The position numbers and the translations under genes are program-made. A DNA stretch of 64,000 bases from an uncultured Pseudomonadota bacterium (lineage in GTDB: Bacteria > Babelota > Babeliae > Babelales > CAIQNR01), in contig CAZRXF010000004.1 in NCBI GenBank assembly GCA_964604015.1, positions 4,861-68,860 on the forward strand, written 5' to 3'. Shown here piece after piece: positions 17,142 through 64,000 of the stretch (positions are counted from its first letter, which is position 1; the number at the start of each line of letters is the position of its first letter). Under the pieces are notes generated by a model. It saw only the letters and a list, made by a program, of their open reading frames with translations. It was not told where the DNA came from and made no database searches.

Positions 17142-20100
17142 TCATGCTTCTGCAGCAGCTGCTTGGCCACCTGTAGAAAAGACACCTGATACTTGTTCTG
17201 CTGGTTTGCATGCGGCAAAGAGATGTTCTCGAATTGGTTCAGAAATGAGTGTGGACTGTTCTTCTAGAAACATTTGTAAAGAGGCTTTAAGTTCAGGGGG
17301 ACCATACTTGCTAAATGCGGTTGCAAATGCAGTTGCATCAGTCTCAGTCTTGATGTCGAGCACTGACGCGTGCAAAGTTGCACGGATTGCGGTCATTTCC
17401 CTTTCCCTCTCTTCCTCTGTTGGCAAAGCAGCGGCCCTTCTGTGTGCAACAATCGAAGCAAGAGCGAGTGCGGTGGTTGGATCATTCAAGATTTCCGCTA
17501 CTTGTGATACGGGCTCTTTTTTGGGTGTAGGTAACATCATTGCCTGACGTGCCGGCTGTTGGTCATCAAGTGTGGACAAAATAATCTTGCGAGTTGCTTC
17601 AAGATGTGCGGCAAATTCCGTAAAGAATTCGCTATTTCCATACTTTTGCAATAAAGCTTCGATGGTGGTAAGCACTTTCCTTGATACTACGTTCACTGCT
17701 TCATGAACACGAGGGTCTTTTTCCTGCTGTTTAGCAAATGCTACATGAAAGCTGGTCCAGTAGAAGGATGCTTCATCGGTATCTGCGTTTCTTAGGACGA
17801 TATCTAAAGCATCGCCAAGGTTTGAGGGATAACGGAGGATTTTTGTGACAAGACCGGCTGCATCTTGAAGGCTTCCCGGGTCAGTGAGGTGTTGTGCAAT
17901 AAAGTTTCTAAGTTCTTTTTCAAAATATGGAAGGATCTTAGTTTTGAATGGTGTTCCTCCTGGCATATTCAATGACTCAAAGTGTATAACGTTCATTTTT
18001 GCTTTCCACTGTGCCTGTTTATCAGGAGAAAGTGTCTTGATGTAATTTTGTAGAGCTTGAACTATGGCAGTATGTTCGGGATGTGTACTCTGTTGCCTGA
18101 GGCGTTCAAGAAATCCTACAATATGAGCGTCTGTTTTGATTTTTTCTTCTAGTGTTTTGCGCAGGGTGTCAGCAATGAATTTGCTGCGTAGGGCTGCGGC
18201 GTCTGCACCAGTAAATACAATTCCTGGCAGAAAACCAAAAAAATCAAAAAGAGATTTAAAATACCCCTCAGGTAACTGAGCAACTGCATGTTCTTGCACT
18301 GGTGTATCACTGGTAGCAAGGAGATTTTCAAAGCGCGTATGAAGTTGTTTCAGCTGTTTTACAAACCGTGTGCGTGCACTTTTGGTAGCCGAACTTTCCG
18401 AATCACCTGATTTTTCTGTATCTGCAATGCACTTGCTGAGGAGAGGTTGAAAAATGGTTGCTATTCTTGTGGCATAGGGTTCGAAGGACGGGTCTTCCAT
18501 CAGAGCAGTAATAAAGAAGGAGGCTGCTCGAGGATGCGTTTTTAGAAGATATTCTGTTGCGAGCATCCGTTCTTGAGGCGATTGAAGTGATCCAAAAAAT
18601 GCGGTTACTTGCTCTTGTGCTTTGATAGAACCAGTTCGTGTAAAAAGAGAAGCTTCAATTGCTTCGGCGCATGCCACGGCCTGTTCTTTCAGTGATGGAG
18701 ACGAAATTGGTGTGGCTGCAGCGGATGCGCAGGCTGTTTCAACTGGCTGCAAGGTTCCAGGGAACTTATGTACCATCGCCATGAAAACTTCGAAACTCTT
18801 CTGTTTATCGGTCAGTCCACTTCTTGCGGCAGAGATGACATCCTCGCTTTGAATTTCTCGTACCCTACCACATCCACTTGGGCCAGCGAGCCATCCTACA
18901 GAATGGAAAATGGGGTTTAGGATAATTGTAGAATTTGCAGAAAAACTTGAGCGGACGAAACAGTATGCCCGTCTATGAATACAGTTTTTCATTGCGCAAG
19001 GAGTGTTTTCGTGATCCTCACGATGTTTTAAGAGTGCTTTGATATACCATACCAATCCCTGTGTGAAGTTGTGAGTAAGCTTGATAGCGTCAAGCATATA
19101 GTTTTCTTGTAACTCTTTAGGAGCGTAGCGACTAAGGTAGGTAAGGAGGAGGGCGCGATCTACTGAGGAAAGTTGGCGTTGAATTTCACCGTGGGGACTT
19201 TCAATGAGTGCTTGGCAGGCGCTGGCTATCTCAAAAGTATCGACCGAAGTTTCAGGGTCTGACGTGTCATCGGTAGTAATAGCCAACGCTTTTAGAATCG
19301 CCAGCAAACATTCAACATGAACAGGCCGTTGTATGTCTGGCAGAGAACGAAGATGTTCACGTGCCGTTGCGATGTCGTTTGCTGCAAGAGCGGTGGTTAT
19401 TGCTTCCTGAATGCTCTGCTCGTGTTCTGCGCGTTCTTGTTTCGCTCGTTTTTCCTGCTCTCTTTTTTCTTTGAATGTTACTGTTCTTTCTTTTCTTTCT
19501 TCTTTGTCAGCAGTTTGGTCTGCTTGCGTGCTAGGTAGGACGGTGTCTCCTACGGCGCTTTCAACAGAACCTTCTTGAGCGGTAGGTGCAGGGGCGACAT
19601 GAGGTGCAGATGCATTTCTTGGCTCAGCAGTTTCTTTCCTCACAGATGCGTTTGGAGCAGCAGCTGCAGCAAGAAAGAAATCATTACTCGCCTGTCGTCT
19701 TCGTTGCTTTGCTGGTGTACCTGCACTTTCTGCTTGTGGTGCTGATGCTTGAGATTTTGGTACCACTGGAGGCGTTAGAGCAGAAGCTGCGTTGTTTGCC
19801 GGTGAGAGTGGTGGTACGGGAGTTGTAGCATTTCGTTGTGTGCCGTGACGTGGTTCAGCTGCATGATGGGTGGCAGTAGTGCTGTGTCTGCGTTGTTTTT
19901 GCTGTGTTTGAGGTATTTGTGGAGCAGTAGGGATGGCGCTTGATCGTTGTTGTTGCGTTGTATTTTTACCGCATGAAGATGTTGTAGATGTCTGTGCGGG
20001 TGGCGTTGGAGTGACGCGAGAGGGTGCTGGGGGCCTTGAGGAGCTGGTGGCAATTGTTGGTTTTTTATTCCACGCACCAAGGGCTGGGTTGTATTCTTCC

Positions 20101-37487: not shown

Positions 37488-38639
37488 CTAACCCAAGAAC
37501 TTTTTAAAAAAGCTGACGATACTGCCTTCCCCACTCGCGCTATCTGTTCCAATGATGTCAGAGTATTCGGTCAGCAGTTTTTTTGCTTCAGGAGAAAGTT
37601 TTTTCGGTATTGCACATTTCGTTATGATAACCAGATTTCCTCGCACTTTGTTGCGCAAATTAGGAAACCCTTTACCGGCCACGATAATACGCTCACCAAC
37701 TTCACATCCCTTTGGTACTTTAACCGTTTCTTTGGTGCCATCGATGCTTTCAATTTCTACCTGTGATCCAAGAACCAGTTGCGGGTACGTTAACATCAGT
37801 GATGAGACTAAGTCGTTGTCTTCTCGTTGGAACTTTTTGTCTGGAGTTACCTTGATCTTCAAAAAAAGATCCCCTGATGGTCCGCCGTATACGCCCGCAT
37901 CACCTTTTTCTGCGATGCGAAGTTCGGCTCCATCGTAGATGCCAGCAGGAATGTTTACGCTAAATTTGTCGTATTTTTGAACGCGTGACTGGCCTTTGCA
38001 GGTTGCACATGGGTGTGGAATGGTATAACCGTTGCCTTGGCATGATGAACACGGTTGTGAGTAGGCAAAAAAGCCTTGCCTAAACTGCACCTGGCCTGCG
38101 CCATGACATGCCGCACATGTTTGTACCGTTGTTCCCGTCTTTAACCCTTTGCCAGAGCAATCATCGCATAAAAAGAAGTGGTAAAAGCTCACCTGCTCTT
38201 TTTTTCCTAAGAACGCATCTTTGAGAGAAACGGTGAGTTCTTTGTAAAGATCATGTCCTCGTTTAGGATCGGGGCCCGTTGCTCCCTTTTTACGCTTCTT
38301 GCTTCGTCCACCGAAAATGTCTTCAAACCCAGAACCGAAAATATCTCCAAAGTTTTCGAAGATATCGTTGATATCCATGCCGCCATGGCCACCAAATCCG
38401 CCCGTGTTCATATTTTCAAAGTTCGCATGACCTACCTGGTCATACTGCTGGCGTTTCGCGTCGTCAGAAAGAATCTCGTACGCGTGAGCAGCTTCCTTAA
38501 ATTTTTCTTCCGCTTCTTTGTTGTCAGGATTTTTGTCCGGATGATATTTGACTGCGAGTTTGCGGTAGGCAGCTTTAATTTCTTCTTTTGTAGCTGAACG
38601 GCTTACGCCCAATATTTCATAAAAATCTTTTTTGGTCAT
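37488..38639 (-). CDS. dnaJ: Chaperone DnaJ (type I, zinc-finger containing)
   Basis: J-domain DFYEILGV and KYHPDKN, a G/F-rich region, and four CxxCxGxG repeats ([32 protein letters not shown]). Confidence 0.95.
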
Positions 38640-38691
38640 GGCTGTTTCGATGGGTTAAAAAGGGAGAATGGAACGGGATTAAGTATAGCAT

Positions 38692-39432
38692 AGTAGGGGT
38701 GTAGCGCCACCCCTTCCTGAAACCCTACTTTTTTTACTTTTATCTTTCTTTGATTCAAGACGCATGTACCCCACTACGCGTGGGGAGGCGCCAGGGGGTG
38801 CTTGTCCACTCCCTTGGAACCAGGACACAACCTTGCAGTTTGATCGCTTTTGACGGCTCCAATCCTCGTTGCGCCCTATCGGTCGACAACTCAGTTCCGC
38901 CTAATAAGGTGTTACCAATCTAGGAACTAAAACAGATTTTTGCTCTGCTGTTTAACCAGTCCAAGTATGAAAGCACTCTCGCTCATTGATCATATTCTTC
39001 TTAACGTCATCCCCAATGAGTGACAGTCGTAGCACTGCAAAAGTGCAGTGACTAGACAAAGCGAATGTCGGGGATCCAGTCAATTTAAAAAACTCTCTTC
39101 ATAGTCATTCCCAATGAATATATAAGGAATGTACCCAATTTTACTGGATCACCGACGCTCACTTTGCCTCGCTGGTGACGACGTCAAGGAGGGTGTGTGA
39201 TTGCTGGCAAGAGAAAACCTAATTCTGGAGTGACTGATAAAATGTAAGTACCCCATTAGGCGGAACTGAGTTGTCGACCGATAGGGCGCAGCGAGGATTG
39301 GAGCCGTCAAAAGCGATCAAACTGCAAGGTTGTGTCCTGGTTCCAAGGGGGTGGACAAGCACCCCCTGGCGCCTCCCCACGCGTAGTGGGGCACATACTT
39401 CTTGAACCAAAGAAAGATGAAAGTAAAAAAAG
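38692..39432. repeat. Intergenic hairpin-mosaic repeat element, copy 1: terminal hairpin, 178-bp inverted-repeat arms and a 349-bp unique core
   Basis: Arms 38728-38905 and 39255-39432 are reverse complements with about 7 mismatches by my manual count. Terminal hairpin GGGGTG-TAGCGC-CACCCC lies at 38696-38713. The arm sequence recurs at 59682-59830. Confidence 0.85.
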
Positions 39433-39458
39433 AAAAGTTGTTTAAAAAGAAGAGATGT

Positions 39459-40346
39459 TCAACCTAAAAGTTTCCGATAGCGTGTGCAGTCCGCTTGTGA
39501 GTGCTTAATTTCTCCACTGCGCTCAGGAGCAAAAAGTGGATCAAGAGGATAATCGAGCTCTTTTTTGAGGTCTTCAAAAAGCTTACGTATTGAACGACTG
39601 GTTCCGGTAGCGATATTGATTGGTTGGCCAGTGCACAAATCAGCAGGAAGTAGGCCTGCAGAAAGATTTGCCTGAACGATCTGATAGACGGGAACAAAGT
39701 CTCGTGTTTGCGTGCCATCACCAAAAATAGTGATCGGCTGTTGTTGCTTCATCCGTTCGGTGAACTTTGCAACAACACCTGAATATTCACTGTGTGGATG
39801 TTGACGAGGACCGTAGACGTTAAAATACCGTAAGCACAGCGTAGGCAGTTGAAATGTCTGAGTGTATTGCTGACACAGCTGCTCTCCAAATAGTTTTGAC
39901 CAGGCGTAAGGCGAAGCAGGGTGGCAGGTAGCTGTTTCTTCACACAGTTTTCCTTGATCACCATAGACGGCGCATGAGGAAGAAAAAACAAAGCGTTCTA
40001 TGTCATTTTTTCGGGCAGCCTCAAGCAGATTACATGTTCCGGTGACATTCGTTTCAAAGCAAAAACGTGGGTTTTCAACTGATTCTGGAACTGAAACTTG
40101 CGCTGCCAAATGGAAAACAGTTGAGGCTCCTTCAAGCGCACGTAGACACGTTGCGGCATCACGAATATCCCCCTCGAAAAAAGTAATTGCGTGGGCAATG
40201 GTAGAAAGATTTTCCTTGGTACCGGTACTCAGGTTATCAAGAACGGTAACCTGGGCGTTACGAGCAACCAATGCTTCAACAAGATGAGATCCAATAAATC
40301 CAGCACCTCCCGTAACAACTACTTTTTTGTTGGCATACTCATTCAT
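39459..40346 (-). CDS. NAD-dependent sugar-nucleotide epimerase/dehydratase (GalE-like SDR)
   Basis: VVVTGGAGFIGSHLVEAL Rossmann motif and YAWSKLFGE (YxxxK). ATGA-coupled to the upstream gene. Confidence 0.8.
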   Translation of the reverse strand: MNEYANKKVVVTGGAGFIGSHLVEALVARNAQVTVLDNLSTGTKENLSTIAHAITFFEGDIRDAATCLRALEGASTVFHLAAQVSVPESVENPRFCFETNVTGTCNLLEAARKNDIERFVFSSSCAVYGDQGKLCEETATCHPASPYAWSKLFGEQLCQQYTQTFQLPTLCLRYFNVYGPRQHPHSEYSGVVAKFTERMKQQQPITIFGDGTQTRDFVPVYQIVQANLSAGLLPADLCTGQPINIATGTSRSIRKLFEDLKKELDYPLDPLFAPERSGEIKHSQADCTRYRKLLG

Positions 40347-44615: not shown

Positions 44616-45176
44616 TTAGACAATTTTTAATTCGTCGTCAGTCAGCACAATGAGTTTTTCAGGATGACGTACTTTAAAAAGTTGTGCCTCCGCACTGTAG
44701 TTCCAGTAGGCGCTACTTGCCTCATACTGAGCCTTACGTATTTTTTCAGTGAGGTAGGTATTGGTATGCGCTGCTGAAAGTTCTTTGTGATATTTTTTTT
44801 CAAAGTGGGCTAGTTCCTGTTTCATCTCACGATATTTGCGATAGACCGAATGACGTTTTGCAAGATACTCATCTCGCTGAGCATTTAGCTTAAGAAGGTC
44901 TGCCTCTTTGTTGTGAAAGGTGTGCCATGCCCGTGTGACGTCCTTTTCTGTTACTGTCTCAGAAACGGGCAGATCGTCCCAGGTCAGGTCGATTACTGGC
45001 TCTTCAAAAAGTGGTACGAGGCTAGGGTTGGGATGGCTCCCGAGATACGCAAGGCGCATTTTTTCATGTTGTTCTGTTATGGTAGATGCTTTGGTCTGAT
45101 GAGGGCTTTTTTTTGCGTATCCATGACCGTGATGTGCAAGAAGATAGGCAACGGTGAGAATAACAGAGCGATTCAT
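44616..45176 (-). CDS. Secreted protein, member B (truncated form lacking the C-terminal domain)
   Basis: The ATG at 45176 follows AAGGA. Signal MNRSVILTVAYLLAHHGHG, then EKMRLAYLGSHPNPS and the same helical region. It ends before the C-terminal domain. Confidence 0.65.
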   Translation of the reverse strand: MNRSVILTVAYLLAHHGHGYAKKSPHQTKASTITEQHEKMRLAYLGSHPNPSLVPLFEEPVIDLTWDDLPVSETVTEKDVTRAWHTFHNKEADLLKLNAQRDEYLAKRHSVYRKYREMKQELAHFEKKYHKELSAAHTNTYLTEKIRKAQYEASSAYWNYSAEAQLFKVRHPEKLIVLTDDELKIV

Positions 45177-45186
45177 AGGGAGTTCC

Positions 45187-46152
45187 TTATTTCTTTTTGG
45201 CCACAACTTCTAGAGTGAAAAGCACGGAATGATCACCGTTTACATGATTTTGAATGATGCAATTTTTGCTGCCAGGGCACGCGTCTTTGCCAACTGTTAA
45301 CGTGTAGTAATTTGTTCCTGTAGATCCGCCAACCATACCCATTGGATTGTTGTTTGAGACGTAATTCATTCCCATTCCAAACTGCATTGCTCGTTTGCAT
45401 TTTGGATTTCTTTTGACTGGGAGCTCAAACAAAGAATAGCTTTCAACTTGTCTGTTGATGCTTCGTTCTACGCCGCCTTGTGGGGATGCAAGGGCAGGCA
45501 GACGAGGATCAGTTTTATCATCGAGCACTTGGCCAGGTACTACTTTGATAGTAGGAGCTTTTTTAGCGAGCTGTTTGACTTCAGCAAGTGATGGTTCTTT
45601 TGGAAATGTTGGCATCGGGAAGTTGTTCCATGGCCCGTGATACGGGTTTTGATGTTCCATTTCATAGGTAAATTGCAGTTGATCAAGAGTAAACCATGCT
45701 TGAGCCAGTTGTGTTTGGGTTGCAATGATCTCCTTGTTATACGGACAGTCTTTCATGACGGTTTCAAGTTCTTTCTGATGTTTCTCTCTGAACGCAGTCA
45801 GGTGCTTTATAAGAGATTCAAGTTCTTTGTAAGCGGGGCTATTTTGTTCGAGATACAGATTCCTTTTTTCTGTGAGAGCTTTGATGTCTTGTTGTAATGC
45901 GTTGTAAGCCTTTTGCGCTTGATTGATTTGTTCTTGCGTAACAGCGGTAGCCTGTGGAAGCGATCGCCAGTGAAGAGGAATGGACGAATGAGGCGTTGGC
46001 ATGATGTTATGTTCAGGATGGAGACGCAAGTACACAAGGCGCATTTTTTCTGCCTCGTCGGCTTGTTTTGCTGTCTTGCTTCCTCCTGGGGTTGCTGAAC
46101 AGAGCTGGAAGGCGGTTAAGAGGGTGAGTAGTGGTTTGATGGATGTATGCAT
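45187..46152 (-). CDS. Secreted protein, member C of the paralog cluster
   Basis: The ATG at 46152 follows AAGGAG. Contains EKMRLVYLRLHPEHN, QVLDDKTDPRLPAL and NYYTLTVGKD...IQNHVNGDHSVLFTLEVVAKKK. Confidence 0.7.
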   Translation of the reverse strand: MHTSIKPLLTLLTAFQLCSATPGGSKTAKQADEAEKMRLVYLRLHPEHNIMPTPHSSIPLHWRSLPQATAVTQEQINQAQKAYNALQQDIKALTEKRNLYLEQNSPAYKELESLIKHLTAFREKHQKELETVMKDCPYNKEIIATQTQLAQAWFTLDQLQFTYEMEHQNPYHGPWNNFPMPTFPKEPSLAEVKQLAKKAPTIKVVPGQVLDDKTDPRLPALASPQGGVERSINRQVESYSLFELPVKRNPKCKRAMQFGMGMNYVSNNNPMGMVGGSTGTNYYTLTVGKDACPGSKNCIIQNHVNGDHSVLFTLEVVAKKK

Positions 46153-50733: not shown

Positions 50734-50808
50734 GCCGGTGTAGCTCAGTGGTAGAGCAATTGATTCGTAATCAGTAGGCCGTCGGTTCAAATCCGATCAC
50801 CGGCTCCA
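50734..50808 (+). tRNA. tRNA-Thr (anticodon CGU), CCA encoded
   Basis: Manual cloverleaf: acceptor GCCGGTG/CACCGGC, D-arm GCTC-AGTGGTA-GAGC, anticodon arm ATTGA-TTCGTAA-TCAGT (CGT at positions 34-36), T-arm GTCGG-TTCAAAT-CCGAT, discriminator T, then CCA. Confidence 0.9.
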
Positions 50809-53393: not shown

Positions 53394-54326
53394 ATGAACA
53401 TAAAGATACTTTGTTTTGTGGCTCTCAATCTCGTTTGTGCCTGCAGTCTGGTCGTGGCAACGGTGTCGTGCAAGGCGACGGCGCTTACCGGTCAGGAGCG
53501 GCAGGAGTGCTTTGATGTGTGGTCGGGCCAGGAACGTGGGGTCTTCACGGAGCGGGCAGCGCGTGCTATGGTTGCTGACTATTTTAAGGCCAGAGCTGGC
53601 GAATCCTTTCCGGACGGATTATTCACTCCTCGCCGAAAGGATTTTGAGAGCTGGATCGGGGATGTTTTCCTTCTCATGCTCAATAAAGCAAACGTCATTA
53701 GCTTAGCGCGGGAAGACGCAGTGGTTGATGATGTTCGGAATATCGTCAAAGCTTCTCAAAACGACCTTAAAAAGATAGTACAACGAAGGAACAAAAAACT
53801 TTCCCCAACAGAAGTTCATAGGCAAGAGGTTAAAAGACTCGTGGCGTGGATTCGGCTTCTCCCTGAATGGCAGACCTATGAGGAAAGGAAGAGCGGAGGG
53901 TGCAGGCAATCTGATTCTGGGCAGCAGGGGGATTTTGATGTGTGGTATGACCAAGGGCGTGGAGTTTTTACACCACAGGAAGCACGTGCTATGGTAACGA
54001 GATATCTCAAGGTAAAGGCTGGTGAATCTTTTTCGTTCTCTCGGCAAAAAGATCTTGAAGATTTTATGCGGGATTCTCTGCTTGTGATGCTCGCTGGAGC
54101 GAAAATTATTCTCTTAGGCAATCCAGACTCTGAAGACGATGTGAAGGCCGTTGTAAAGCTCTCTCGAGAAAAACTCAAAGAAACGTCTTATGAAGTTGAA
54201 GCACACAACCGGTTCGATGCTCGTCGTCGGCAAGAGGTTAAAAGGCTGGTTGCGTGGATTCGCCTTCTTCCCGAATGGCAAGCATATGAAGACAAGATGA
54301 GCAAGATATGTGGGTGTTCTAAATAG
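53394..54326 (+). CDS. Secreted protein built from two tandem ~141-aa repeats (unknown function)
   Basis: AGGAGGG before the ATG. Signal MNIKILCFVALNLVCACSLVVA. Repeat units start at FDVW (53511 and 53934) and each ends with RQEVKRLVAWIRLLPEWQ[TA]YE. Confidence 0.75.
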   Translation: MNIKILCFVALNLVCACSLVVATVSCKATALTGQERQECFDVWSGQERGVFTERAARAMVADYFKARAGESFPDGLFTPRRKDFESWIGDVFLLMLNKANVISLAREDAVVDDVRNIVKASQNDLKKIVQRRNKKLSPTEVHRQEVKRLVAWIRLLPEWQTYEERKSGGCRQSDSGQQGDFDVWYDQGRGVFTPQEARAMVTRYLKVKAGESFSFSRQKDLEDFMRDSLLVMLAGAKIILLGNPDSEDDVKAVVKLSREKLKETSYEVEAHNRFDARRRQEVKRLVAWIRLLPEWQAYEDKMSKICGCSK

Positions 54327-57865: not shown

Positions 57866-59374
57866 ATGACAAAAGAAAAAGCTCCTGATGCAGCACTGCA
57901 TCACTCCCATGCTGAATCACAAGAACACCTCGTTCGCGTAGAAAAGGTAAAAAAACTGCGCGAAATGGGAATTGAGCCATGGCCTGAAAGTAAACAGGTT
58001 ACTGGTACGTGCCATGAAGTCGTGGAGCAATTTGAGCGTGACGAAGAAAAGGAATATGCCGTTGCTGGACGCTTAGTAGCATTACGCGGTCACGGTAAGA
58101 CTATGTTTGGTAAGCTGCAAGATCGGTCAGGGACAGTGCAGCTTTATTTCAAACAAGACACGCTGGGCGATGAGGCTTTTAGCTTGCTTGAAAAGTTTGT
58201 AGATCTTGGAGATTTGCTTTGGGTTCGTGGTGTTTCTTTCAAAACAAAAACAGGTGAAGTCACGCTTCGTGTTGATGAGTTGACGCTGCTTGCTAAATGT
58301 TTGCATCCGCTGCCTGAAAAATTTCACGGGCTTACTGATATCGAAACTCGCTACCGTCAGCGCTACCTCGATCTGATTACCGATGAGGAAAGCAGGACTC
58401 GCTTTATTGCGCGATCAAAAATTATCAGTGGCATTCGTCACTATCTTGAAGATCATGGGTTTATGGAAGTGGAAACACCGATGCTCCATCCCATTCCTGG
58501 AGGTGCTGCAGCTCGTCCTTTTGTGACGCATCACAATGCACTCAATTCTGAATTTTTCCTTAGAATTGCTCCTGAATTGTACCTAAAACGTTTGGTCGTT
58601 GGTGGTTTTGAACGGGTGTATGAAATCAATAGAAACTTTAGAAATGAAGGAGTTTCTACTCGTCATAATCCAGAGTTTACGATGCTTGAGTTCTATCTTG
58701 CGCATCATGATTACAACTACATCATGGACTTTGTTGAGCAGATGTTGCGTACCGTTGCTTTGCAAGCGCGTGGTACTACACAACTTTCGTTCCATGGTCA
58801 TGCCATTGATTTTTCAAAACCGTTTTCTCGTTTGAGCGTTAAAGACGCCGTGTTACAGTACGGTAAACTGACTGAAGCGGCCATTGCACCTGATGCCATC
58901 GATAAAGAACTGGCAAAGCATGGCATTGAATTGAAAGTAAAAGACACTTCCTATGCACAGAAACTGTTCTTGTTGTTTGAGGAAGTGGCAGAAAAGCAGC
59001 TGATTCAGCCAACATACATTATCGATTATCCTGTTGAAATTTCTCCTCTTGCAAAGAGTGATGCACAAAAACCGGGATTTGTTGCGCGTTTTGAACTCTT
59101 TATTGGTGGTATGGAATTTGCAAATGCCTTTAACGAATTGAATGATCCATTTGATCAGGAACAACGGTTCAGAGAACAAGCAGCAACACATAAGGCGGGC
59201 GATGATGAAGCTCATCGTTATGATGCTGAATATGTGCAAGCGCTGCAATACGGTCTCTTTCCAACCGTTGGGTGTGGTATCGGAATCGATCGTTTAGTAA
59301 TGCTTATGACTGATGCTCCATCAATCAAAGATGTGATTCTTTTCCCTACTCTTAAAAAGAAAGAACTGGCGTAG
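57866..59374 (+). CDS. lysS: Lysine--tRNA ligase (class II)
   Basis: OB-fold N-domain, motif 2 FRNEGVSTRHNPEFTMLEFY, and motif 3 GCGIGIDRLVMLMTD. Confidence 0.95.
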   Translation: MTKEKAPDAALHHSHAESQEHLVRVEKVKKLREMGIEPWPESKQVTGTCHEVVEQFERDEEKEYAVAGRLVALRGHGKTMFGKLQDRSGTVQLYFKQDTLGDEAFSLLEKFVDLGDLLWVRGVSFKTKTGEVTLRVDELTLLAKCLHPLPEKFHGLTDIETRYRQRYLDLITDEESRTRFIARSKIISGIRHYLEDHGFMEVETPMLHPIPGGAAARPFVTHHNALNSEFFLRIAPELYLKRLVVGGFERVYEINRNFRNEGVSTRHNPEFTMLEFYLAHHDYNYIMDFVEQMLRTVALQARGTTQLSFHGHAIDFSKPFSRLSVKDAVLQYGKLTEAAIAPDAIDKELAKHGIELKVKDTSYAQKLFLLFEEVAEKQLIQPTYIIDYPVEISPLAKSDAQKPGFVARFELFIGGMEFANAFNELNDPFDQEQRFREQAATHKAGDDEAHRYDAEYVQALQYGLFPTVGCGIGIDRLVMLMTDAPSIKDVILFPTLKKKELA

Positions 59375-59977
59375 GAGTGTAGCGCCACCTTCGCCGTTGC
59401 GACTTTGTCGCTAAGGCGTAATCACGCCGTAGCCTTGGCGAAGGCGGACCTTACTGTAGCCCTTCTCTTCTTTTACTTTCAGCTTTCTTCTGAACAAGAC
59501 GTATGTGTGCCCTTACGCAGGGCATGCGTAAAAGGGGTGCTTGCCCACCCCTTTTAAAACAGGGCACCAGCCGTTCCTCTGGACCCCCATGACGGCAACG
59601 ACGTTTCGCCGCATCCTTCGGGGGACGGCTCACGGCTCTGCCTGATATGGACCTTTATTAAATTAAATTTAGTCACTCCTTATTAGGCGGAACTGAGTTG
59701 TCGACCGATAGGGCGCAACGAGGATTGGAGCCGTAAAAGCAATCAATCCGCAGGATTGTGTCCTGATTCCAAAGGGGTAGACAAGTACCCCTTTGGTGCT
59801 GCGCGCAGAGCGCATACATACTTCTTGAACTTAAGGCATACTTTGTGGGCCCTCACAAAAAAGGACCGCTTTGGCGCCCTTTCCCGGCGTAAGGGGGTAC
59901 AGATGTCGTGTTCCCACGAGAAAGAGAAAAAGGTCAAAATAAAAAGTAGGGGATTGAGAAGTGGTGGCGCTACACCA
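59375..59977. repeat. Intergenic hairpin-mosaic repeat element, copy 2 (both termini present)
   Basis: Inverted termini GTGTAGCGCCACC (59377-59389) and GGTGGCGCTACAC (59963-59975). A well-conserved arm (59682-59830) is homologous to 39255-39410, and a degenerate inverted arm lies at 59471-59646. A private three-way-junction insert sits at 59385-59447. Confidence 0.8.
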
Positions 59978-60045
59978 GTCTCTAGACCTTTCCCTTTCTA
60001 GAACGGTATAACGAACAGAAATTGTTCTTAGAAAAAGGAAGAGGA

Positions 60046-62235
60046 ATGGGAAAAAAATCGTATCTTTTATATCTTTTTTTGTTGATTCCAGTAGGAGCTC
60101 GGGCAGACGTTAATGATAATCTCAGTTATCTCGTCTCTCAGTACGGCATACAGTATCTCTTTCCGTACTATTACTTTGATATCAACTCTGCGGCAGCTGC
60201 TTTGCGTGGTTCCATGCGTGCGGCATGGACGGTGAAAGGTTGGGTAGGGCTTGGTAGTTTTAGTGATCTTCAGAATGCGTATCTCTACCCACCAGATGGT
60301 GCTGTTCCTGCGGATGTTCGTGCGAAATTACAGGAATTCAATCAGCACGTTGTTGCAACGTCAGAAGTCCCGGAATTTGTAGCCGAACACCCCTTGCGTC
60401 GTGACACTGATCTAGGAAATTTTGAAAAAGAATTCATTACAAATCGATTGAATTATGCAGCGCCTCTCTTTCAGATGGCGGATGAGGATCATCCTTTTGT
60501 AGATCCTGACACAAACCTTACGAAAAACCCAACTCCGTATGGGTACGCGCTTGATGTGCCTTTAGTTGCAGGGGCAGATGTTCCTCGGATTGCCACCTGC
60601 TTTAGTGGAGGAGGATTCAGGGCAATGATTGCAACACTTGGTTTTTGGCAGGCGGTAAGTGACATGGGCATAGCAGGTTCCATTCTGTATAGTGCGAATC
60701 TTTCAGGGTCTACCTGGTGTACCATTCCTTGGACGGTGGGAGCATCATTGCGTGATTTGTATGTGACCTATGAAAAATATGCACACATTTCTGTTGGGGT
60801 AGCGACTTTGAATGATCTGCGTAAATACGTGGTTCCTCCTATGAGCGTAAATGGTGATCTGGGGTATGTGCGTAAAAAATTTGTGAGTGCGTTTTTATGG
60901 GCACAGCCACTTAGTTCGGTGCGTGGACTTTACAGTCCGTTGCTTGGTCAGATGACCCTTTCTGCGTGGGATGATGATCTTTTACGTCAGGCCTATGATA
61001 TTACGCTTCCAAAGCAGTCTTCGCAGTACCTCTATTTTTGGCAGGCAATGGATTTCATTAAAGATGGGACGAAGCGTCCTTTCCCCATTGCAACCTCTTT
61101 GATCCCCTACGCGGGCAATTTCAATGAAGTTGCTTCAAAAATTGCTGTGAAACAGAAATCTTCCAATGGTATTTGGATGGAATTTAATCCTGAATCGGTA
61201 GGATTTGAATATTTCGATAAGAACAAAGACCTGACAGGGGTATGGATTCCTTCGTTTGCCTTGGGAAGATTCTTTAATCCCGTGTACAAAGAACCTTCTC
61301 GGTGGTATCGCATTTTCACAAATAAAACAGTGTTAGGGTATGCCAGTGATCCGGCTCCAGTACACACGTTAGACTATTGGGAAGGAACCTGGGGATCAGC
61401 ATTTACCGTGTCCCCGGCAGATGTGTATCGGATCTTTTTTAAAGAGGTTCCGCCTTCTGAAGATCAAAGTTCAACAGGACTTTCGAGCAGTACTACATTG
61501 ACAGAACGGGTTATTGGGTTACTTGGTAGTGCAGTTGGGGGAGCTGCAACGCTTGGTAAAGAAGTTGCAGCGCTTAGTAATATGAATAATATACGTCTCT
61601 TTCCTGCGTACTTTAATAATTTTGCACCATTTGATGATTCGCCTATTCAAGCTGCTACATTTACGGCCGTTGATGCGGGAATTGATTTTAACCTTCCCTT
61701 TCCTCCTCTTCTTCGCCAATCTCGCGGTGTTGATTTGATTATTGTGGGAGATTGGTCTGAAGCAACGCCTGCCTACCCTGCAAAGCAACTATGTCTAGCA
61801 GAAAAGTGGGCCCAAACGCGGGGAGTTCCATTCCCAAAAATTCTTACTTCAAAGTTTTACAAAACGATCTATGACCGACCTATGACATTGTTTAATGAAT
61901 ACGAAGAAGGTACAAGAGGACCTGCAATTTTGTATATTCCGTTGATCGACAATGAGTTCAACGTTCCTGATTTTAATTTGAATGGCTGTTTTAATGGCTC
62001 TTGTTCAACATTCAACTTTGATTATTCAAAAAAGGGACGTGATGGAGTGAAAGACCTTTCAGAAGAGGTGTACAATATCTTATGGGATCTGTATCCGCAG
62101 ATGAGGCAAGTAGTTCAGCAGATGGTGGTGGCAAAGAATGAGGCCGCTCAGAATCATACGCCCTACCAATTTTCTATGACAATGGCAGATGTCGATCCGA
62201 TTGCACCACAGGCTGCAATTCAAGCTGGTGCGTAG
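60046..62235 (+). CDS. Secreted cytosolic-PLA2/phospholipase-B-type lipase (PLA2_B/PLAc catalytic domain)
   Basis: The ATG at 60046 follows AAGGAAGAGGA. Signal MGKKSYLLYLFLLIPVGARA. Contains FSGGGFRAM (60604-60627), the nucleophile elbow NLSGSTW (~60697-60717) and VDAGIDFNLPFPPLLRQSRGVDLII (Asp codon 61672-61674). This is the GGGFR / G-x-S-G-S / D-x-G-x-x-F-N-L-P pattern of eukaryotic cPLA2. Confidence 0.85.
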   Translation: MGKKSYLLYLFLLIPVGARADVNDNLSYLVSQYGIQYLFPYYYFDINSAAAALRGSMRAAWTVKGWVGLGSFSDLQNAYLYPPDGAVPADVRAKLQEFNQHVVATSEVPEFVAEHPLRRDTDLGNFEKEFITNRLNYAAPLFQMADEDHPFVDPDTNLTKNPTPYGYALDVPLVAGADVPRIATCFSGGGFRAMIATLGFWQAVSDMGIAGSILYSANLSGSTWCTIPWTVGASLRDLYVTYEKYAHISVGVATLNDLRKYVVPPMSVNGDLGYVRKKFVSAFLWAQPLSSVRGLYSPLLGQMTLSAWDDDLLRQAYDITLPKQSSQYLYFWQAMDFIKDGTKRPFPIATSLIPYAGNFNEVASKIAVKQKSSNGIWMEFNPESVGFEYFDKNKDLTGVWIPSFALGRFFNPVYKEPSRWYRIFTNKTVLGYASDPAPVHTLDYWEGTWGSAFTVSPADVYRIFFKEVPPSEDQSSTGLSSSTTLTERVIGLLGSAVGGAATLGKEVAALSNMNNIRLFPAYFNNFAPFDDSPIQAATFTAVDAGIDFNLPFPPLLRQSRGVDLIIVGDWSEATPAYPAKQLCLAEKWAQTRGVPFPKILTSKFYKTIYDRPMTLFNEYEEGTRGPAILYIPLIDNEFNVPDFNLNGCFNGSCSTFNFDYSKKGRDGVKDLSEEVYNILWDLYPQMRQVVQQMVVAKNEAAQNHTPYQFSMTMADVDPIAPQAAIQAGA

Positions 62236-62361
62236 GGCGTGTCTACTTTAAAAAACGATAATCTTAGTAAAAAGTGAACTTGTATGTCTCCATTACGTCG
62301 CCCCCAACGAACAACGTGAGTGTTGGGGGTCCAGTAAATAAAAAAAACAAAATCATCATAT

Positions 62362-62388
62362 GAAAGGGGTAGGAGAGTACCCCTTTTT
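62362..62388 (+). terminator. Rho-independent terminator downstream of the phospholipase gene
   Basis: AAAGGGGTA-GGAGAG-TACCCCTTT followed by a T-run. A second hairpin CCCCCAAC...GTTGGGGG lies at 62301-62329. Confidence 0.6.
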
Positions 62389-64000
62389 TATGGCGTTACT
62401 GCTGGATCAGGCGCAGTGGAAGGGGAGTGAGTATGGTGGTGAGGATTTTCCAGCGTGCCGTGAGACATCATGTAGATCTTGATGCCAAAAATAGCAGCAC
62501 TGAGTGGGAAAAGGAGCCAGTATTTTTTTAACCATTCTTTCCAGTCCATGCCCACGTGAATCTCATTTTTTTCAAGAAATTGGGGAAGCTCTTCCACAAG
62601 GATATCAAGCAGATTGAGGATATCCTCAAGTGGCATTTGTTGCAGTTGGTCAAGAGGAAGCCGCCCTTTTCCTTCAATAAACAGGGGGCGGCACCGGGAA
62701 GAAGCATGGTGCGTTGCCGTTGTATGAAGAAGATGTGTTACAAAACAGGCAAATTCTTTCATGATTTGTTCGTCTTGAATGTATTTATACCGATTTATGT
62801 TGTTCCAAAAGGAAAAAAGGGGACGGAAGGAACGGGTTCGATAGAGCGCTCGAATCATCACCAAGACCGGCTCTTTAGTAATGTTAAGTTGTTCAAGGCA
62901 CGGATCAATTTCATCACCAGTGCTGTTGCTGCAGCTGAGGCGCAAAAGCCCCTGCGCGTTAAGAAGATAGAGTTTGTGAAGCGCGGGTTCCATTCTTTTC
63001 AGGAGATAGAATCGACTGATCACCTTATCAATTTCAATCCATGGCCTGAAATCAGAAAGAAGGGCTCCCTGTTCCTGTGAAAGATTTTTGTAAAGTCGTG
63101 CGGTGGGTGTGGGCTGTGAGGAGAGAAAAATGTGGAGTAACGGGGCATAGTGTTGGTTTGCAGGGGAGCTCAGGACAGTGTGTGAGAGGATAAAAATTTC
63201 TTTGGTAAAATCTTCAATAAGTTTTTGATCACACACATCGCGGTATGCCTTAAAATCTTCCCAGACAAGAGCAAGCGGTTTAAGAAGCAAACTTGTTTTT
63301 GTTGGTTCTGAAGAAGATTCGCGGGAGGTGAGTTTAAGAAGGATTTTTGCTACTTCTTCAAGTCGTTTAATGTAGTAGTAACGGTGAAACACCATATTGG
63401 TAAAAGACTCAGGTGTGGTGTTGTATTCTGTTTTGATGAGGGTACTGATGGAAGAAAGATCGGTAGTTTTTATGTGGGGAACAGAACGAGGAAGGGCCAA
63501 AGGCTCATGAGCATAGGCAGAAAGACGATTGCTGTATTTTTCATTGACCGTATCGATGAGGGTGAGGATTTGTTCTATGGAAAGTTCTTGCAGTTCATCA
63601 AATGTTTCAGTTGATCGAAGTGTGAAAGCGTCTTTGTATACCAGACACAAAAGAAGGAGGAGTTCCTTAGTGAAGGTAGGGCTTTTTATAAAATCAAAAC
63701 TTTGAAATTGGCCAATGACCTGTATGAGTGGGCCAAGATGTTTTTCTTCCAACAACAGAGAAAAATATCCAGCTATCACAGGATCGTTAAAAATAAGATC
63801 TTCTTTTTTAAATCCAAGGTTCTCAACGCCGTGAAGAAGAATAGGAACATTTCGGTCGTGGAGCGATTTGAAAAGCACAAAGCTTGCATGGAGTCTTTTT
63901 GTTAGGTAGTAACGAAGGGCAAAACTTGCGCAGAAATCATCAGTATAGACATGTGGAGTTGGTGGTCGTTGAACGGCAACAAGCGCAAGAGGAGAGTAGC
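62388..64000 (-). CDS. Hypothetical helical protein with C-terminal TM helix and His-rich tail (probably 5' partial)
   Basis: The track ORF 62388-63878 starts at GTG, but I read the same frame with no stop up to base 64000, so the gene may begin beyond the window. C-terminus WLLFPLSAAIFGIKIYMM then ENPHHHTHSPS. Confidence 0.6.
   Translation of the reverse strand, partial: YSPLALVAVQRPPTPHVYTDDFCASFALRYYLTKRLHASFVLFKSLHDRNVPILLHGVENLGFKKEDLIFNDPVIAGYFSLLLEEKHLGPLIQVIGQFQSFDFIKSPTFTKELLLLLCLVYKDAFTLRSTETFDELQELSIEQILTLIDTVNEKYSNRLSAYAHEPLALPRSVPHIKTTDLSSISTLIKTEYNTTPESFTNMVFHRYYYIKRLEEVAKILLKLTSRESSSEPTKTSLLLKPLALVWEDFKAYRDVCDQKLIEDFTKEIFILSHTVLSSPANQHYAPLLHIFLSSQPTPTARLYKNLSQEQGALLSDFRPWIEIDKVISRFYLLKRMEPALHKLYLLNAQGLLRLSCSNSTGDEIDPCLEQLNITKEPVLVMIRALYRTRSFRPLFSFWNNINRYKYIQDEQIMKEFACFVTHLLHTTATHHASSRCRPLFIEGKGRLPLDQLQQMPLEDILNLLDILVEELPQFLEKNEIHVGMDWKEWLKKYWLLFPLSAAIFGIKIYMMSHGTLENPHHHTHSPSTAPDPAVTP

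What the first reader, a model, noticed from the sequence alone, without database searches (positions are those of the whole stretch)
39318..39391. Compensatory substitutions keep three hairpins intact between repeat copies, pointing to selection on structure
Hairpin A is GGGGGTG-GACAAG-CACCCCC in copy 1 (39347-39366) and CCAAAGGGGTA-GACAAG-TACCCCTTTGG in copy 2 (59769-59796). The loop is identical and two G:C pairs are replaced by A:T pairs on both sides. Hairpin B, always just inside the conserved AAGA(A/C)G(T/C)ATGT box, uses three unrelated stems: CCCCAC/GTGGGG (39375-39391 and 38769-38785), TGCGC/GCGCA (59800-59814) and TGCCC/GGGCA (59508-59524). Hairpin C is CAAACT-GCA-AGGTTG in copy 1 (39318-39332, one mismatch) and CAATCC-GCA-GGATTG in copy 2 (59744-59758, perfect), with paired changes. 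Covariation of this kind is the classic signature of a functional RNA or single-stranded DNA fold rather than neutral decay.
Basis: seen in the sequence. Interest (0 to 1): 0.7.

Follow-up and report, generated by a model that had tools for sequence, protein, structure and literature searches.

The report
Hairpin-rich palindromic intergenic repeat family
The three hairpins are real and stay paired through matched double substitutions, but they belong to an undescribed family of non-coding palindromic repeat elements that are gained and lost between genes in uncultured Babeliales (TM6) bacteria, and the evidence fits a DNA-level property of a mobile repeat better than a discrete functional RNA.

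Summary
Observation confirmed and extended. The finding lies in the right arm of a ~770-bp non-coding palindromic element (38695-39467) between dnaJ and an epimerase gene. A second element lies at 59365-59978, and a third about 2.7 kb left of the window. The organism is a Babeliales (Dependentiae/TM6) metagenome genome.

I collected 10 alignable arms from four related species. Hairpins C, A and B are paired in 96% of cells, against 77% in shuffles and 33-53% in slid controls. 17 of 24 pairs show double-sided changes. Loops, a TAC(G/T)TCTTG box and a core stay conserved.

The signature is strand-symmetric:
- 40 Watson-Crick-to-Watson-Crick cells against 2 G·U cells.
- A·C and G·U mismatches are balanced between the strands.
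- Arms lie in both orientations relative to genes.
- One loop is inverted between two strains.
- The hairpins are a mutation hot spot.

Sister species differ in presence or absence at three loci, in both directions. Elements start at stop codons, and short-read assemblies break inside them. No Rfam family, promoter or terminator was found.

Best reading: a new MITE/REPIN-like repeat family. Its hairpins are probably maintained at the DNA level, by template switching or conversion plus selection for hairpin formation. A strand-specific ncRNA is not excluded, but nothing here supports it.

The parts
38695..39467 (.). Element L1. This is a ~770-bp non-coding palindromic element between dnaJ (37488-38639, minus strand) and an epimerase gene (39459-40346, minus strand). 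Its decayed right end supplies the epimerase stop codon.
   Evidence: Inverted repeat I1. The whole element folds at -469 kcal/mol, z = -50. A six-frame translation has no protein relatives. Relatives L006, L044, L045 and L047 have only a 64-185 bp spacer at this site. The epimerase is 15 aa longer in L006.
39250..39439 (+). L1 right arm, which holds the finding. Its order is core, hairpin C, hairpin A, hairpin B, box, then a purine-rich tail.
   Evidence: nhmmer E = 1e-47 and CM E = 8.5e-27.
38721..38910 (-). L1 left arm, 94% complementary to the right arm. It lies 65 nt upstream of the dnaJ extended -10 box (TGCTATACT).
39318..39332 (+). Hairpin C (CAAACT-GCA-AGGTTG). The mirror copy is at 38828-38842.
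   Evidence: Five of its 6 pairs carry double-sided changes across the arms.
39343..39369 (+). Hairpin A (CC[A]AGGGGGTG-GACAAG-CACCCCCTGG). The mirror copy is at 38791-38817, with one A.C mismatch.
   Evidence: Seven of 12 pairs carry double-sided changes, and the pair next to the loop shows all four Watson-Crick types.
39375..39391 (+). Hairpin B (CCCCAC-GCGTA-GTGGGG). The mirror copy is at 38769-38785.
   Evidence: All cells are paired, and 5 of 6 pairs carry double-sided changes.
39392..39406 (+). Conserved unpaired box, CACATACTTCTTGAA (family consensus YAC-N-TAC-K-TCTTG). The mirror copy is at 38754-38768.
   Evidence: The box is present in all 10 alignable arms.
38911..39249 (.). L1 centre. 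It is non-coding and partly self-complementary, and is homologous to the centre of element L3.
   Evidence: nhmmer E = 7e-16 to L034:6521-6670, and a self-hit on the opposite strand with E = 1e-7.
38695..38714 (.). Terminal hairpin D (AGGGGTG-TAGCGC-CACCCCT), carrying the outer inverted end GGTGTAGCGCCACC.
   Evidence: (3 sites against 0.19 expected).
59365..59978 (.). Element L2. This is a ~614-bp imperfect palindrome between lysS (57866-59374, plus strand) and a 729-aa gene (60046-62235, plus strand). It overlaps the lysS stop codon.
   Evidence: The sister species L050 has an empty 79-bp spacer, and right-flank homology resumes at CTCTAGAC, which is window 59980.
59677..59835 (+). L2 right arm (subfamily I). 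Hairpin C is at 59744-59758, hairpin A at 59769-59796 and hairpin B at 59800-59814.
59487..59655 (-). L2 left arm (subfamily II, about 60% identical to the other arms). Hairpin B is at 59508-59524 and hairpin A at 59529-59556.
   Evidence: It shares AAGGAWGCGGCG and a GGAAC hairpin-C loop with the arms in L040, L041 and the left arm of L050.
62276..62394 (+). Probable decayed partial copy between convergent genes. It has a centre-like GTTGGGGGTCCAGTAAATAAAAAAAAC and a hairpin-A-like AAAGGGGTA-GGAGAG-TACCCCTTTTTT that now looks like a bidirectional terminator.
   Evidence: nhmmer gives E = 0.03 to the L1 centre and the CM gives E = 0.075. This is weak evidence.

Best explanation
The hairpins are modules of a lineage-specific family of non-coding, palindromic, interspersed repeat elements (MITE/REPIN/BIME-like, 440-770 bp) in a genus-level clade of uncultured Babeliales (Candidatus Babelota, also called Dependentiae or TM6).

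Anatomy. Each arm of about 160-215 nt has a core, three short hairpins (C, A, B) with conserved loops (GCA; GACAAG/GGCAAG; GCRKA), an unpaired box TAC(G/T)TCTTG and a purine-rich tail. In this species there is also a terminal hairpin D. Arms occur singly, as near-identical inverted pairs (L1), or as pairs drawn from two old subfamilies (L2).

Shown:
- The elements are multi-copy.
- They sit directly behind stop codons or in promoter-distal spacers.
- They are present or absent at orthologous sites between sister species, in both directions.
- Their stems are kept Watson-Crick on both strands while the stem sequence turns over faster than the neighbouring core.

Inferred mechanism. The hairpins form in single-stranded DNA, during replication or in a transposition intermediate. 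Template switching within the quasi-palindromes, and conversion between copies, create paired changes and loop flips in single events. Copies that lose the hairpins stop propagating and decay, as in the L045 remnant. The conserved loops and box next to variable stems suggest recognition by a structure-specific enzyme, as HUH/Y1 transposases recognise IS200/IS605 ends or REPs. That enzyme has not been seen.
For: Repeat architecture.

Multi-copy status:
- Three elements (5 arms) plus one remnant lie in about 81 kb of this genome.
- Three independent short-read assemblies of the same organism break inside elements: L002 ends at window 39362, L005 ends at 59580, and L033 starts at 59884.

Family in relatives: arms are found in L016 (two arms), L040/L041 and L050.

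Gain and loss:
- On the DnaJ tree there are three sister pairs, and each has one filled and one empty (or decayed) dnaJ-upstream site. The outgroup is empty.
- The sister species is empty at the L1 and L2 sites but filled behind cmk, where this genome is empty.
- L045 keeps a decayed remnant.

Non-coding: plus indels between copies.

Covariation: 96% of cells paired, 17 of 24 pairs doubly changed, 0/500 shuffles reach it.

Strand symmetry: 40 double changes against 2 G.U cells, and 3 A.C against 2 G.U. Arm orientation relative to flanking genes is inconsistent.

DNA-level events:
- The loop is CTTGCC in L040 and GGCAAG in L041, although the two strains are 98.5-99.5% identical.
- 12 of 36 strain differences in 3.2 kb fall in the 100-nt hairpin bin.
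- The hairpin tract diverges faster than the core at short range (70% against 91%; 87% against 100%). At long range it is better kept (52-65% against 35-52%).

Literature: template switching yields multi-base compensatory changes and loop inversions (PMC8794818). REPINs are inverted REP doublets mobilised by RAYTs (PMC3116915, PMC3337134).
Against: - No transposase or RAYT gene appears in the ~81 kb seen of this genome or in the relatives' loci (Pfam columns).
- No target-site duplication could be identified.
- The total copy number is unknown, because the full genome could not be scanned.
- An arm lies upstream of dnaJ, in the same orientation and 65-85 nt from the -10 box, in three non-sister lineages. 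That could mean a conserved cis function rather than mobility.
- The L1 right arm folds better than shuffles on the plus strand (z = -3.2) but not on the minus strand (z = -0.75). This is a weak hint of strand preference.
- The structural alignment was made by hand with the structure in mind.
- The arms are few and related, so the shuffle statistics overstate independence.
Confidence: 0.6

Rival explanations
1. The arm is a strand-specific structured non-coding RNA of about 160 nt with three hairpins. It would be either a small RNA gene or a cis-acting leader or upstream element, for example for dnaJ. Selection on the RNA fold would keep the stems paired, and the extra copies would be paralogues.
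For: Covariation is strong. An arm lies upstream of dnaJ, co-oriented with it and 65-85 nt before the conserved -10 box, in the window, L016 and L040/L041. Both L016 arms point toward the downstream gene. The plus strand of the L1 right arm folds with z = -3.2, against -0.75 for the minus strand. Loops and the box are conserved.
Against: No Rfam match appears even at E = 10. No promoter-like or terminator-like site lies inside the elements. L3, L1R and L2L point against the flow of transcription. G.U pairs are nearly absent and the mismatch types are balanced between strands. The sister species of each carrier lacks the arm upstream of dnaJ. The long-range closing stem in the minimum-energy fold is not conserved even between the two L1 arms. 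A loop inversion between strains would change the loop of an RNA.
Confidence: 0.15
2. The hairpins act at the RNA level whichever way they are transcribed. They would work as 3'-end stabilisers, RNase III or RNase E targets, or ribosome or transcription roadblocks within read-through mRNAs, as reported for REP, BIME, ERIC and Correia elements. That orientation-independent use would be what selects for Watson-Crick stems on both strands.
For: All four full elements start at or over the stop codon of the upstream gene: epimerase, lysS, the MshEN-domain gene and cmk. Each whole element would fold into a very long duplex if transcribed. Strand-symmetric pairing fits this reading. A hairpin-A-like stem at 62362-62390 sits between convergent genes and has flanking A and T tracts.
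Against: No expression data are available. The hairpins inside the elements lack U-tracts. This reading does not explain the conserved loops and box, the mutation hot spot or the gain/loss pattern. It is compatible with, rather than an alternative to, a selfish repeat origin.
Confidence: 0.15
3. There is no constraint. The pairing would be a by-product of recent inverted duplication of short segments or of chance, and the hairpins would be decaying neutrally.
For: The two L1 arms are 94% identical, so they are not independent. Related sequences can beat shuffle controls without any structure (tool caveat).
Against: Pairing is kept at 96% across arms that are only 35-65% identical elsewhere, and across four species. 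Slid-partner controls, which preserve relatedness, give 33-53% pairing and a covariation score of 0.02-0.10 against 0.50. At least 20 independent double substitutions are needed to explain the pair types. Where constraint is evidently lost, in L045, the hairpins are deleted and the sequence becomes AT-rich.
Confidence: 0.03
4. The palindromes are binding sites for a dimeric DNA-binding protein or a tyrosine recombinase. Hairpin A has the 11-6-11 layout of dif or core sites. The two half-sites would then co-vary because both must fit the same protein.
For: Hairpin A has 11-bp arms and a 6-nt centre, 28 bp in all. Flipping the centre, as seen between L040 and L041, is what inversion of a symmetric site would look like.
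Against: The half-site sequence is not conserved between copies in one genome (GGGGTG, GGGGTA, GATATG), so one protein could not read them all. Three different hairpins with unrelated stems show the same behaviour. No CIRCE-like operator is present. No recombinase gene lies nearby.
Confidence: 0.04

Closest known systems
REP / BIME / REPIN elements of proteobacteria (mobilised by RAYT Y1 transposases; PMC3116915, PMC3337134)
   Same: Both are extragenic, non-coding and multi-copy. Both are built from short imperfect palindromes arranged as inverted pairs that form a larger hairpin. L2 combines two arm subfamilies, as BIMEs combine Y and Z REPs. Both lie right after stop codons and persist in a lineage over species-level divergence.
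   Different: These elements are about 5-10 times larger (440-770 bp against about 70-150 bp). Each arm carries three or four different hairpins plus a 57-nt conserved core. A GTAG tetranucleotide is not consistently placed. No RAYT gene has been seen. The host is an obligate-intracellular-type Babeliales lineage, not a proteobacterium.
Bacterial MITEs and long palindromic repeats (Correia/NEMIS, ERIC, RUP, Rickettsia palindromic elements)
   Same: Both have terminal inverted repeats, no coding capacity, filled and empty sites between close relatives, and insertions that abut or overlap gene ends. Here the epimerase loses 15 aa and LysS gains 3 aa. Both fold into a long hairpin if transcribed.
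   Different: No target-site duplication and no parent insertion sequence have been identified. The arms of one element can be only about 60% alike. Solo arms are common. Internal hairpins with conserved loops and hypervariable stems are not a defining MITE feature.
Subterminal hairpins of single-strand transposons (IS200/IS605 and their PATEs; IS91/ISCR and Helitron 3' hairpins) and integron attC sites
   Same: In both cases the structure is conserved while the stem sequence varies. Conserved short motifs lie next to the hairpin foot (here the TAC(G/T)TCTTG box). Recognition is expected on single-stranded DNA.
   Different: Those systems are strand-asymmetric, with different left and right ends. 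These elements are symmetric inverted repeats. No HUH enzyme or integron integrase gene is in view. The resemblance is functional analogy only.
Template-switch-maintained hairpins (Monttinen and Loytynoja 2022, PMC8794818)
   Same: Both show multi-base compensatory changes confined to stems, a fully inverted loop between close relatives, stem extension or deletion, and mutation clusters at hairpins.
   Different: That work concerned rRNA and microRNA genes, whose function is at the RNA level. Here the hairpins sit in a repeat element with no evidence of an RNA product.

Membership tests
MITE (miniature inverted-repeat transposable element) | Terminal inverted repeats bounding a short non-coding element | tested here: met
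   L1 has 190-nt arms that are 94% complementary. The ends GGTGTAGCGCCACC / GGTGGCGCTACACC occur at L2 and on the left of L1. A six-frame translation has no protein relatives.
MITE (miniature inverted-repeat transposable element) | Several copies per genome and insertion polymorphism (filled and empty sites) | tested here: met
   Three elements plus one remnant lie in about 81 kb. Three loci differ between sister species in both directions. Assemblies break inside elements. The genome-wide count is unknown.
MITE (miniature inverted-repeat transposable element) | Target-site duplication flanking the element | tested here: inconclusive
   No duplication is visible at L2, L1 or L50 when compared with empty sites. 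The relatives are 11-13% diverged in protein, so short duplications could be erased.
MITE (miniature inverted-repeat transposable element) | A parent autonomous insertion sequence with matching ends | not testable with these tools
No transposase Pfam hit appears in any fetched locus.
REP / REPIN-RAYT | Short imperfect palindrome with a conserved 5' GTAG-type tetranucleotide | tested here: not met
   GTAG precedes hairpin D at the left ends of L1 and L2. It overlaps the stem in L3 and is absent at the right end of L2. Hairpins A-C have no such motif.
REP / REPIN-RAYT | Two palindromic units in inverted orientation forming a larger hairpin | tested here: met
   L1, L2 and L50 are inverted arm pairs.
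REP / REPIN-RAYT | A single-copy RAYT (Y1 transposase, PF01797) gene in the same genome | not testable with these tools
   None is seen in the ~81 kb available. The whole genome is not available.
Known structured RNA family (Rfam 15) | Match to a covariance model at or near the gathering score | tested here: not met
   Only tRNA-Thr at 50734 reaches the gathering score. The best matches in the elements have E = 0.35-5 and lie far below the gathering score.
Intrinsic (Rho-independent) terminator | G+C-rich stem followed by a U-tract | tested here: not met
   No site is found in L1. In L2 the only site is on the minus strand of hairpin C, which is no more than shuffles give. Hairpin A is followed by CTGG, TTTGG or TTTTA. 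Only the solo hairpin at 62362-62390 has a T6 tail.
CIRCE / HrcA operator (heat-shock genes) | TTAGCACTC-N9-GAGTGCTAA upstream of dnaJ, dnaK or groE | tested here: not met
   No match with up to 3 mismatches anywhere in the window.
IS200/IS605-derived PATE | Asymmetric left and right ends with subterminal hairpins and no terminal inverted repeats | tested here: not met
   The elements are symmetric inverted repeats.

The most novel reading that the evidence does not exclude
The arms are substrates of a dedicated, still unseen structure-specific enzyme, in a long-lived and mostly vertically inherited repeat-enzyme partnership. This would be the Babeliales counterpart of REPIN-RAYT, but with 160-nt arms of three hairpins. 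The loops and a TAC(G/T)TCTTG box would be read by the enzyme, while the stems are free, or even driven, to diversify. Two arm subfamilies that predate the species splits would then behave like two co-existing replicator lineages in a reduced, host-dependent genome.
Probability: 0.15. Interest if true: 0.6.

Novelty: new member of a known kind. Interest (0 to 1): 0.42.

Why it matters
The result has three uses.
1. It documents an interspersed palindromic repeat family in Babelota/Dependentiae. My one literature search (Dependentiae + palindromic) returned nothing that describes such repeats in this group. The family explains recurrent assembly breaks in these metagenome genomes, and it changes gene ends, because stop codons are supplied by the element.
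2. It is a caution for covariation-based discovery of non-coding RNAs. Here very strong covariation comes with a strand-symmetric, Watson-Crick-only signature, a loop inversion between strains and a local mutation hot spot. That combination points to DNA-level hairpin dynamics in a repeat rather than to an RNA gene.
3. If a cognate enzyme exists, the conserved-loop and variable-stem design would be a new example of structure-specific recognition of single-stranded DNA.

Tried and rejected
- **Rfam.** I ran the gathering threshold on the whole window, and E up to 10 on both loci. Nothing turned up beyond one tRNA and chance-level hits.
- **Exact-pattern scans.** The core 20-mer CTGAGTTGTCGACCGATAGG gave 0 hits in GTDB representative genomes and in JGI metagenomes. 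The hairpin-A-plus-box pattern gave 0 hits in JGI metagenomes. The source genome is not in those collections, and the family is narrow.
- **Six-frame translation of both elements** as a bait for spurious ORFs called in other copies. It found no hit among 5.8 billion proteins.
- **Protein-coding reading of the 57/63-aa ORFs in the arms.** Rejected: indels between copies break the frame and there are no homologues.
- **REP-like GTAG motif.** It is not consistently placed.
- **CIRCE operator.** Absent.
- **Terminator reading of hairpin A.** There is no U-tract.
- **Long-range closing stem** (39251-39263 with 39377-39391) from the minimum-energy fold. It is not conserved in the L1 left arm or in L2.
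- **Pseudoknot between loop A (CAAG) and the box (CTTG).** By inspection it is not kept in L16, L40 or L41.
- **Target-site duplications** at filled and empty sites. None were found.
- **MAFFT/RNAalifold on raw arms**. The stems come out of register in the diverged arms, so I used a hand-registered, N-padded alignment, and separately ran a covariance-model search of the related loci.
- **Literature search** for palindromic repeats in Dependentiae. Nothing relevant.
Full report
**1. What is at the coordinates**

The finding is not in a simple direct repeat. It lies in the right arm of a 190-nt inverted repeat: 38721-38910 pairs with 39250-39439 at 94% complementarity, with 339 nt between the arms.

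Together with an outer hairpin carrying GGTGTAGCGCCACC, this makes a ~770-bp element, L1 (38695-39467). It fills the 820-bp spacer between dnaJ (37488-38639, minus strand) and an NAD-dependent epimerase gene (39459-40346, minus strand).

It lies between lysS and a 729-aa gene and is bounded by the same inverted ends. L2 is an almost continuous imperfect palindrome.

Aligning the four arms shows one common order: core, hairpin C, GTGYCCTG, hairpin A, hairpin B, the box ACATRCKTCTTG, a purine-rich tail, then terminal hairpin D. It also shows that the left arm of L2 is a diverged (~60%) homologue of the other three arms over its whole length.

**2. Source and relatives**

The sequence comes from metagenome assemblies (ENA ERZ27282915 and others). 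DnaJ relatives in GTDB genomes are MAGs labelled Candidatus Babelota / Babeliales (lineage).

The core 20-mer and a hairpin-A-plus-box pattern have no exact match in 596 Gb of representative genomes or in JGI metagenomes. Rfam gives nothing. A six-frame translation of both elements has no relative among 5.8 billion proteins.

A profile of the arms (nhmmer) and a covariance model (R1) found further arms:
- one about 2.7 kb left of the window in the same genome (L3 = L034:6327-6484, with a centre homologous to the L1 centre);
- two in the related MAG ZH-3nov15-92 (L016:2640-2806 and L016:5376-5541);
- one upstream of dnaJ in two strains of another species (L040:9723-9888 and L041:7313-7479);
- an element of about 440 bp in the sister species (L050, about 19040-19470).

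Nothing was found in about 390 kb from more distant Babeliales.

**3. Covariation test**

MAFFT put the stems of diverged arms out of register. I therefore built an N-padded alignment of the three stem-loops by hand. Each stem-loop string was checked to be an exact substring of its source, and MAFFT kept the alignment gap-free.

On 10 arms:
- 96.0% of 223 cells form standard pairs. Shuffles give 76.8 +/- 1.7% (0/500 reach the observed value) and slid partners give 33-53%.
- 17 of 24 pairs have changes on both sides (shuffle mean 7.3).
- The covariation score is 0.50, against 0.15 shuffled and 0.02-0.10 slid.
- The pair next to the loop of hairpin A shows all four Watson-Crick types.
- Position 6 of hairpin C shows four types.
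- Position 4 of hairpin B shows three types.
- Hairpin B of L1 and of the L2 left arm share the loop GCGTA, with 4 of 6 pairs doubly changed.

Caveats: the alignment was made with the structure in mind, and the arms are few and related (L1R/L1L, L16a/b and L40/41 are near-duplicates). Even so, the pair types require at least about 20 independent double substitutions.

**4. Nature of the constraint**

Several results argue against a one-strand RNA.
- Only 2 cells are G.U, against 40 double changes. Mismatches that would be wobble pairs on the other strand (A.C, 3 cells) balance them.
- Arms lie in both orientations relative to the flanking genes. L3, L1R and L2L point against transcription, while L16a, L16b, L1L and L2R point with it.
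- No promoter-like or terminator-like site lies in the elements.
- Between two strains that are 98.5-99.5% identical, the hairpin-A loop is CTTGCC in one and GGCAAG in the other, an exact reverse complement. In addition, 12 of the 36 differences in 3.2 kb fall in the 100-nt bin that holds hairpins C-A-B.
- At short range the hairpin tract changes faster than the adjacent core: 70% against 91% for L1R/L2R, and 87% against 100% for L40/L41. At long range it is the better-kept part, 52-65% against 35-52%.

Loop inversions, multi-base compensatory changes and mutation clusters at hairpins are the published footprints of template switching during DNA replication (PMC8794818). The only hint of strand preference is the fold energy of the L1 right arm: z = -3.2 on the plus strand against -0.75 on the minus strand. 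That fold rests partly on a closing stem that is not conserved.

**5. Gain and loss**

On a DnaJ tree, the seven closest genomes form three sister pairs plus an outgroup. In each pair one member has an arm upstream of dnaJ (window, L040, L016). The other has a spacer of about 90-185 bp (L044, L006, L045). The outgroup L047 has 64 bp. L045 keeps a decayed remnant in which the top of hairpin A, hairpin B and the box are deleted.

The sister species of the window organism is also empty at the L2 site. It has a 79-bp spacer, and flank homology resumes exactly at the element's end. That species carries its own element between the cmk stop codon and the terminator, where this genome has 5 nt.

Within a genome, arms resemble each other more than they resemble arms at the same position in other species. 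Even so, two subfamilies (I: L1, L2R, L3; II: L2L, L40/41, L50L) are shared across species.

All four full elements begin at or over the stop codon of the upstream gene. The epimerase is 15 aa shorter than in L006, and LysS is 3 aa longer than in L050. Three short-read assemblies of the same organism break inside elements.

**6. Interpretation**

The best-supported reading is a new family of non-coding palindromic interspersed repeats, of the MITE / REPIN / BIME kind. Its hairpins are kept Watson-Crick on both strands.

Shown: architecture, multi-copy status, turnover between sister species, covariation, strand symmetry, and the hot spot with loop flip.

Inferred:
- The hairpins matter in single-stranded DNA.
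- Template switching and conversion supply the paired changes.
- A structure-specific enzyme reads the conserved loops and box.

No transposase, RAYT gene or target-site duplication was seen, so membership of any specific mobile-element family is not established. The rivals remain open at lower probability, because no expression data could be consulted. They are a strand-specific ncRNA or dnaJ leader, and an orientation-independent role in mRNA ends.

**7. Verdict**

In novelty this is a new member of a known kind. Interest is moderate. The finding is a clean natural example in which strong covariation does not by itself indicate an RNA gene, and no earlier description of such repeats in Babelota turned up in my one literature search.

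Noticed in passing
window 62276-62394: The spacer between convergent genes contains GTTGGGGGTCCAGTAAATAAAAAAAAC, which resembles the L1 centre, and AAAGGGGTA-GGAGAG-TACCCCTTTTTT, whose stem is identical to hairpin A of L2. It looks like a decayed partial element now serving as a bidirectional terminator. Support is weak: nhmmer E = 0.03 and CM E = 0.075.
   Followed up: partly
window 59393-59447 and 59833-59920: The outer segments of L2 carry extra hairpin-rich inserts that L1 lacks. On the left, CCACCTTCGCC...GGCGAAGGCGG encloses two 5-bp hairpins. On the right, an ~85-nt insert weakly resembles a second hairpin A-B tract (nhmmer E = 0.04). This suggests nested insertion or partial duplication.
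   Followed up: partly
window 38683-38694 (minus strand); L006:4864-4875; L016:2880-2891; L040:9935-9946: TG(C/G)TATACT(T/C/G)AA lies about 40-50 nt upstream of the dnaJ start codon and is conserved across all relatives. It is probably an extended -10 promoter. In the window, the element ends only 7 nt upstream of it.
   Followed up: partly
window 1604-26792 and 60022-63878: Nine large ORFs (496-1987 aa) have no NCBIfam match at E <= 1e-5. Where genes were called on the matching contigs (most of the nine), they also carry no Pfam hit on record. This is typical of the uncharacterised giant proteins of host-dependent bacteria.
   Followed up: partly
window 60041-60186 compared with L004:6177-6322: Contig ERZ27282915 k141_4260506 matches the window at 99.98% up to 60040. 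It then shows 35 mismatches in its last 146 nt, which cover the 5' end of the 729-aa gene, and the contig ends. This could be a strain or paralogue variant that caused the assembly break just past element L2.
   Followed up: no
L016:2260-2370, 2810-2830, 5290-5345, 5650-5665: The related MAG has a second short repeated motif, ATAAGCTCTTA(C), often as small hairpins such as ATAAGCTCA...TGAGCTTAT. It flanks both arms in a different order. It may be another repeat family or a terminator type in that species.
   Followed up: no
L040:9018-9452 (and L041:6608-7042): A 144-aa gene on the opposite strand lies between the epimerase gene and the dnaJ-upstream arm. It overlaps the epimerase 3' end by 34 nt. 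It is absent from the sister genome L006, so about 800 bp (gene plus arm) differ between the two.
   Followed up: no
window 53816-53894 / 54224-54302 and 45012-45065 / 45997-46050: Two direct repeat pairs (81% and 70% identity) lie inside or at the ends of neighbouring ORFs. They probably reflect internal domain repeats or tandem paralogues and are unrelated to the hairpin elements.
   Followed up: no
window 38714 (L001) and 59482 (L004): There are very few single-base differences between assemblies of this organism: 3 in 20.9 kb, and 1 in the first ~6.2 kb of L004. Two of them fall inside the elements. One breaks the basal pair of hairpin D. This agrees with the elements being mutation-prone.
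   Followed up: partly
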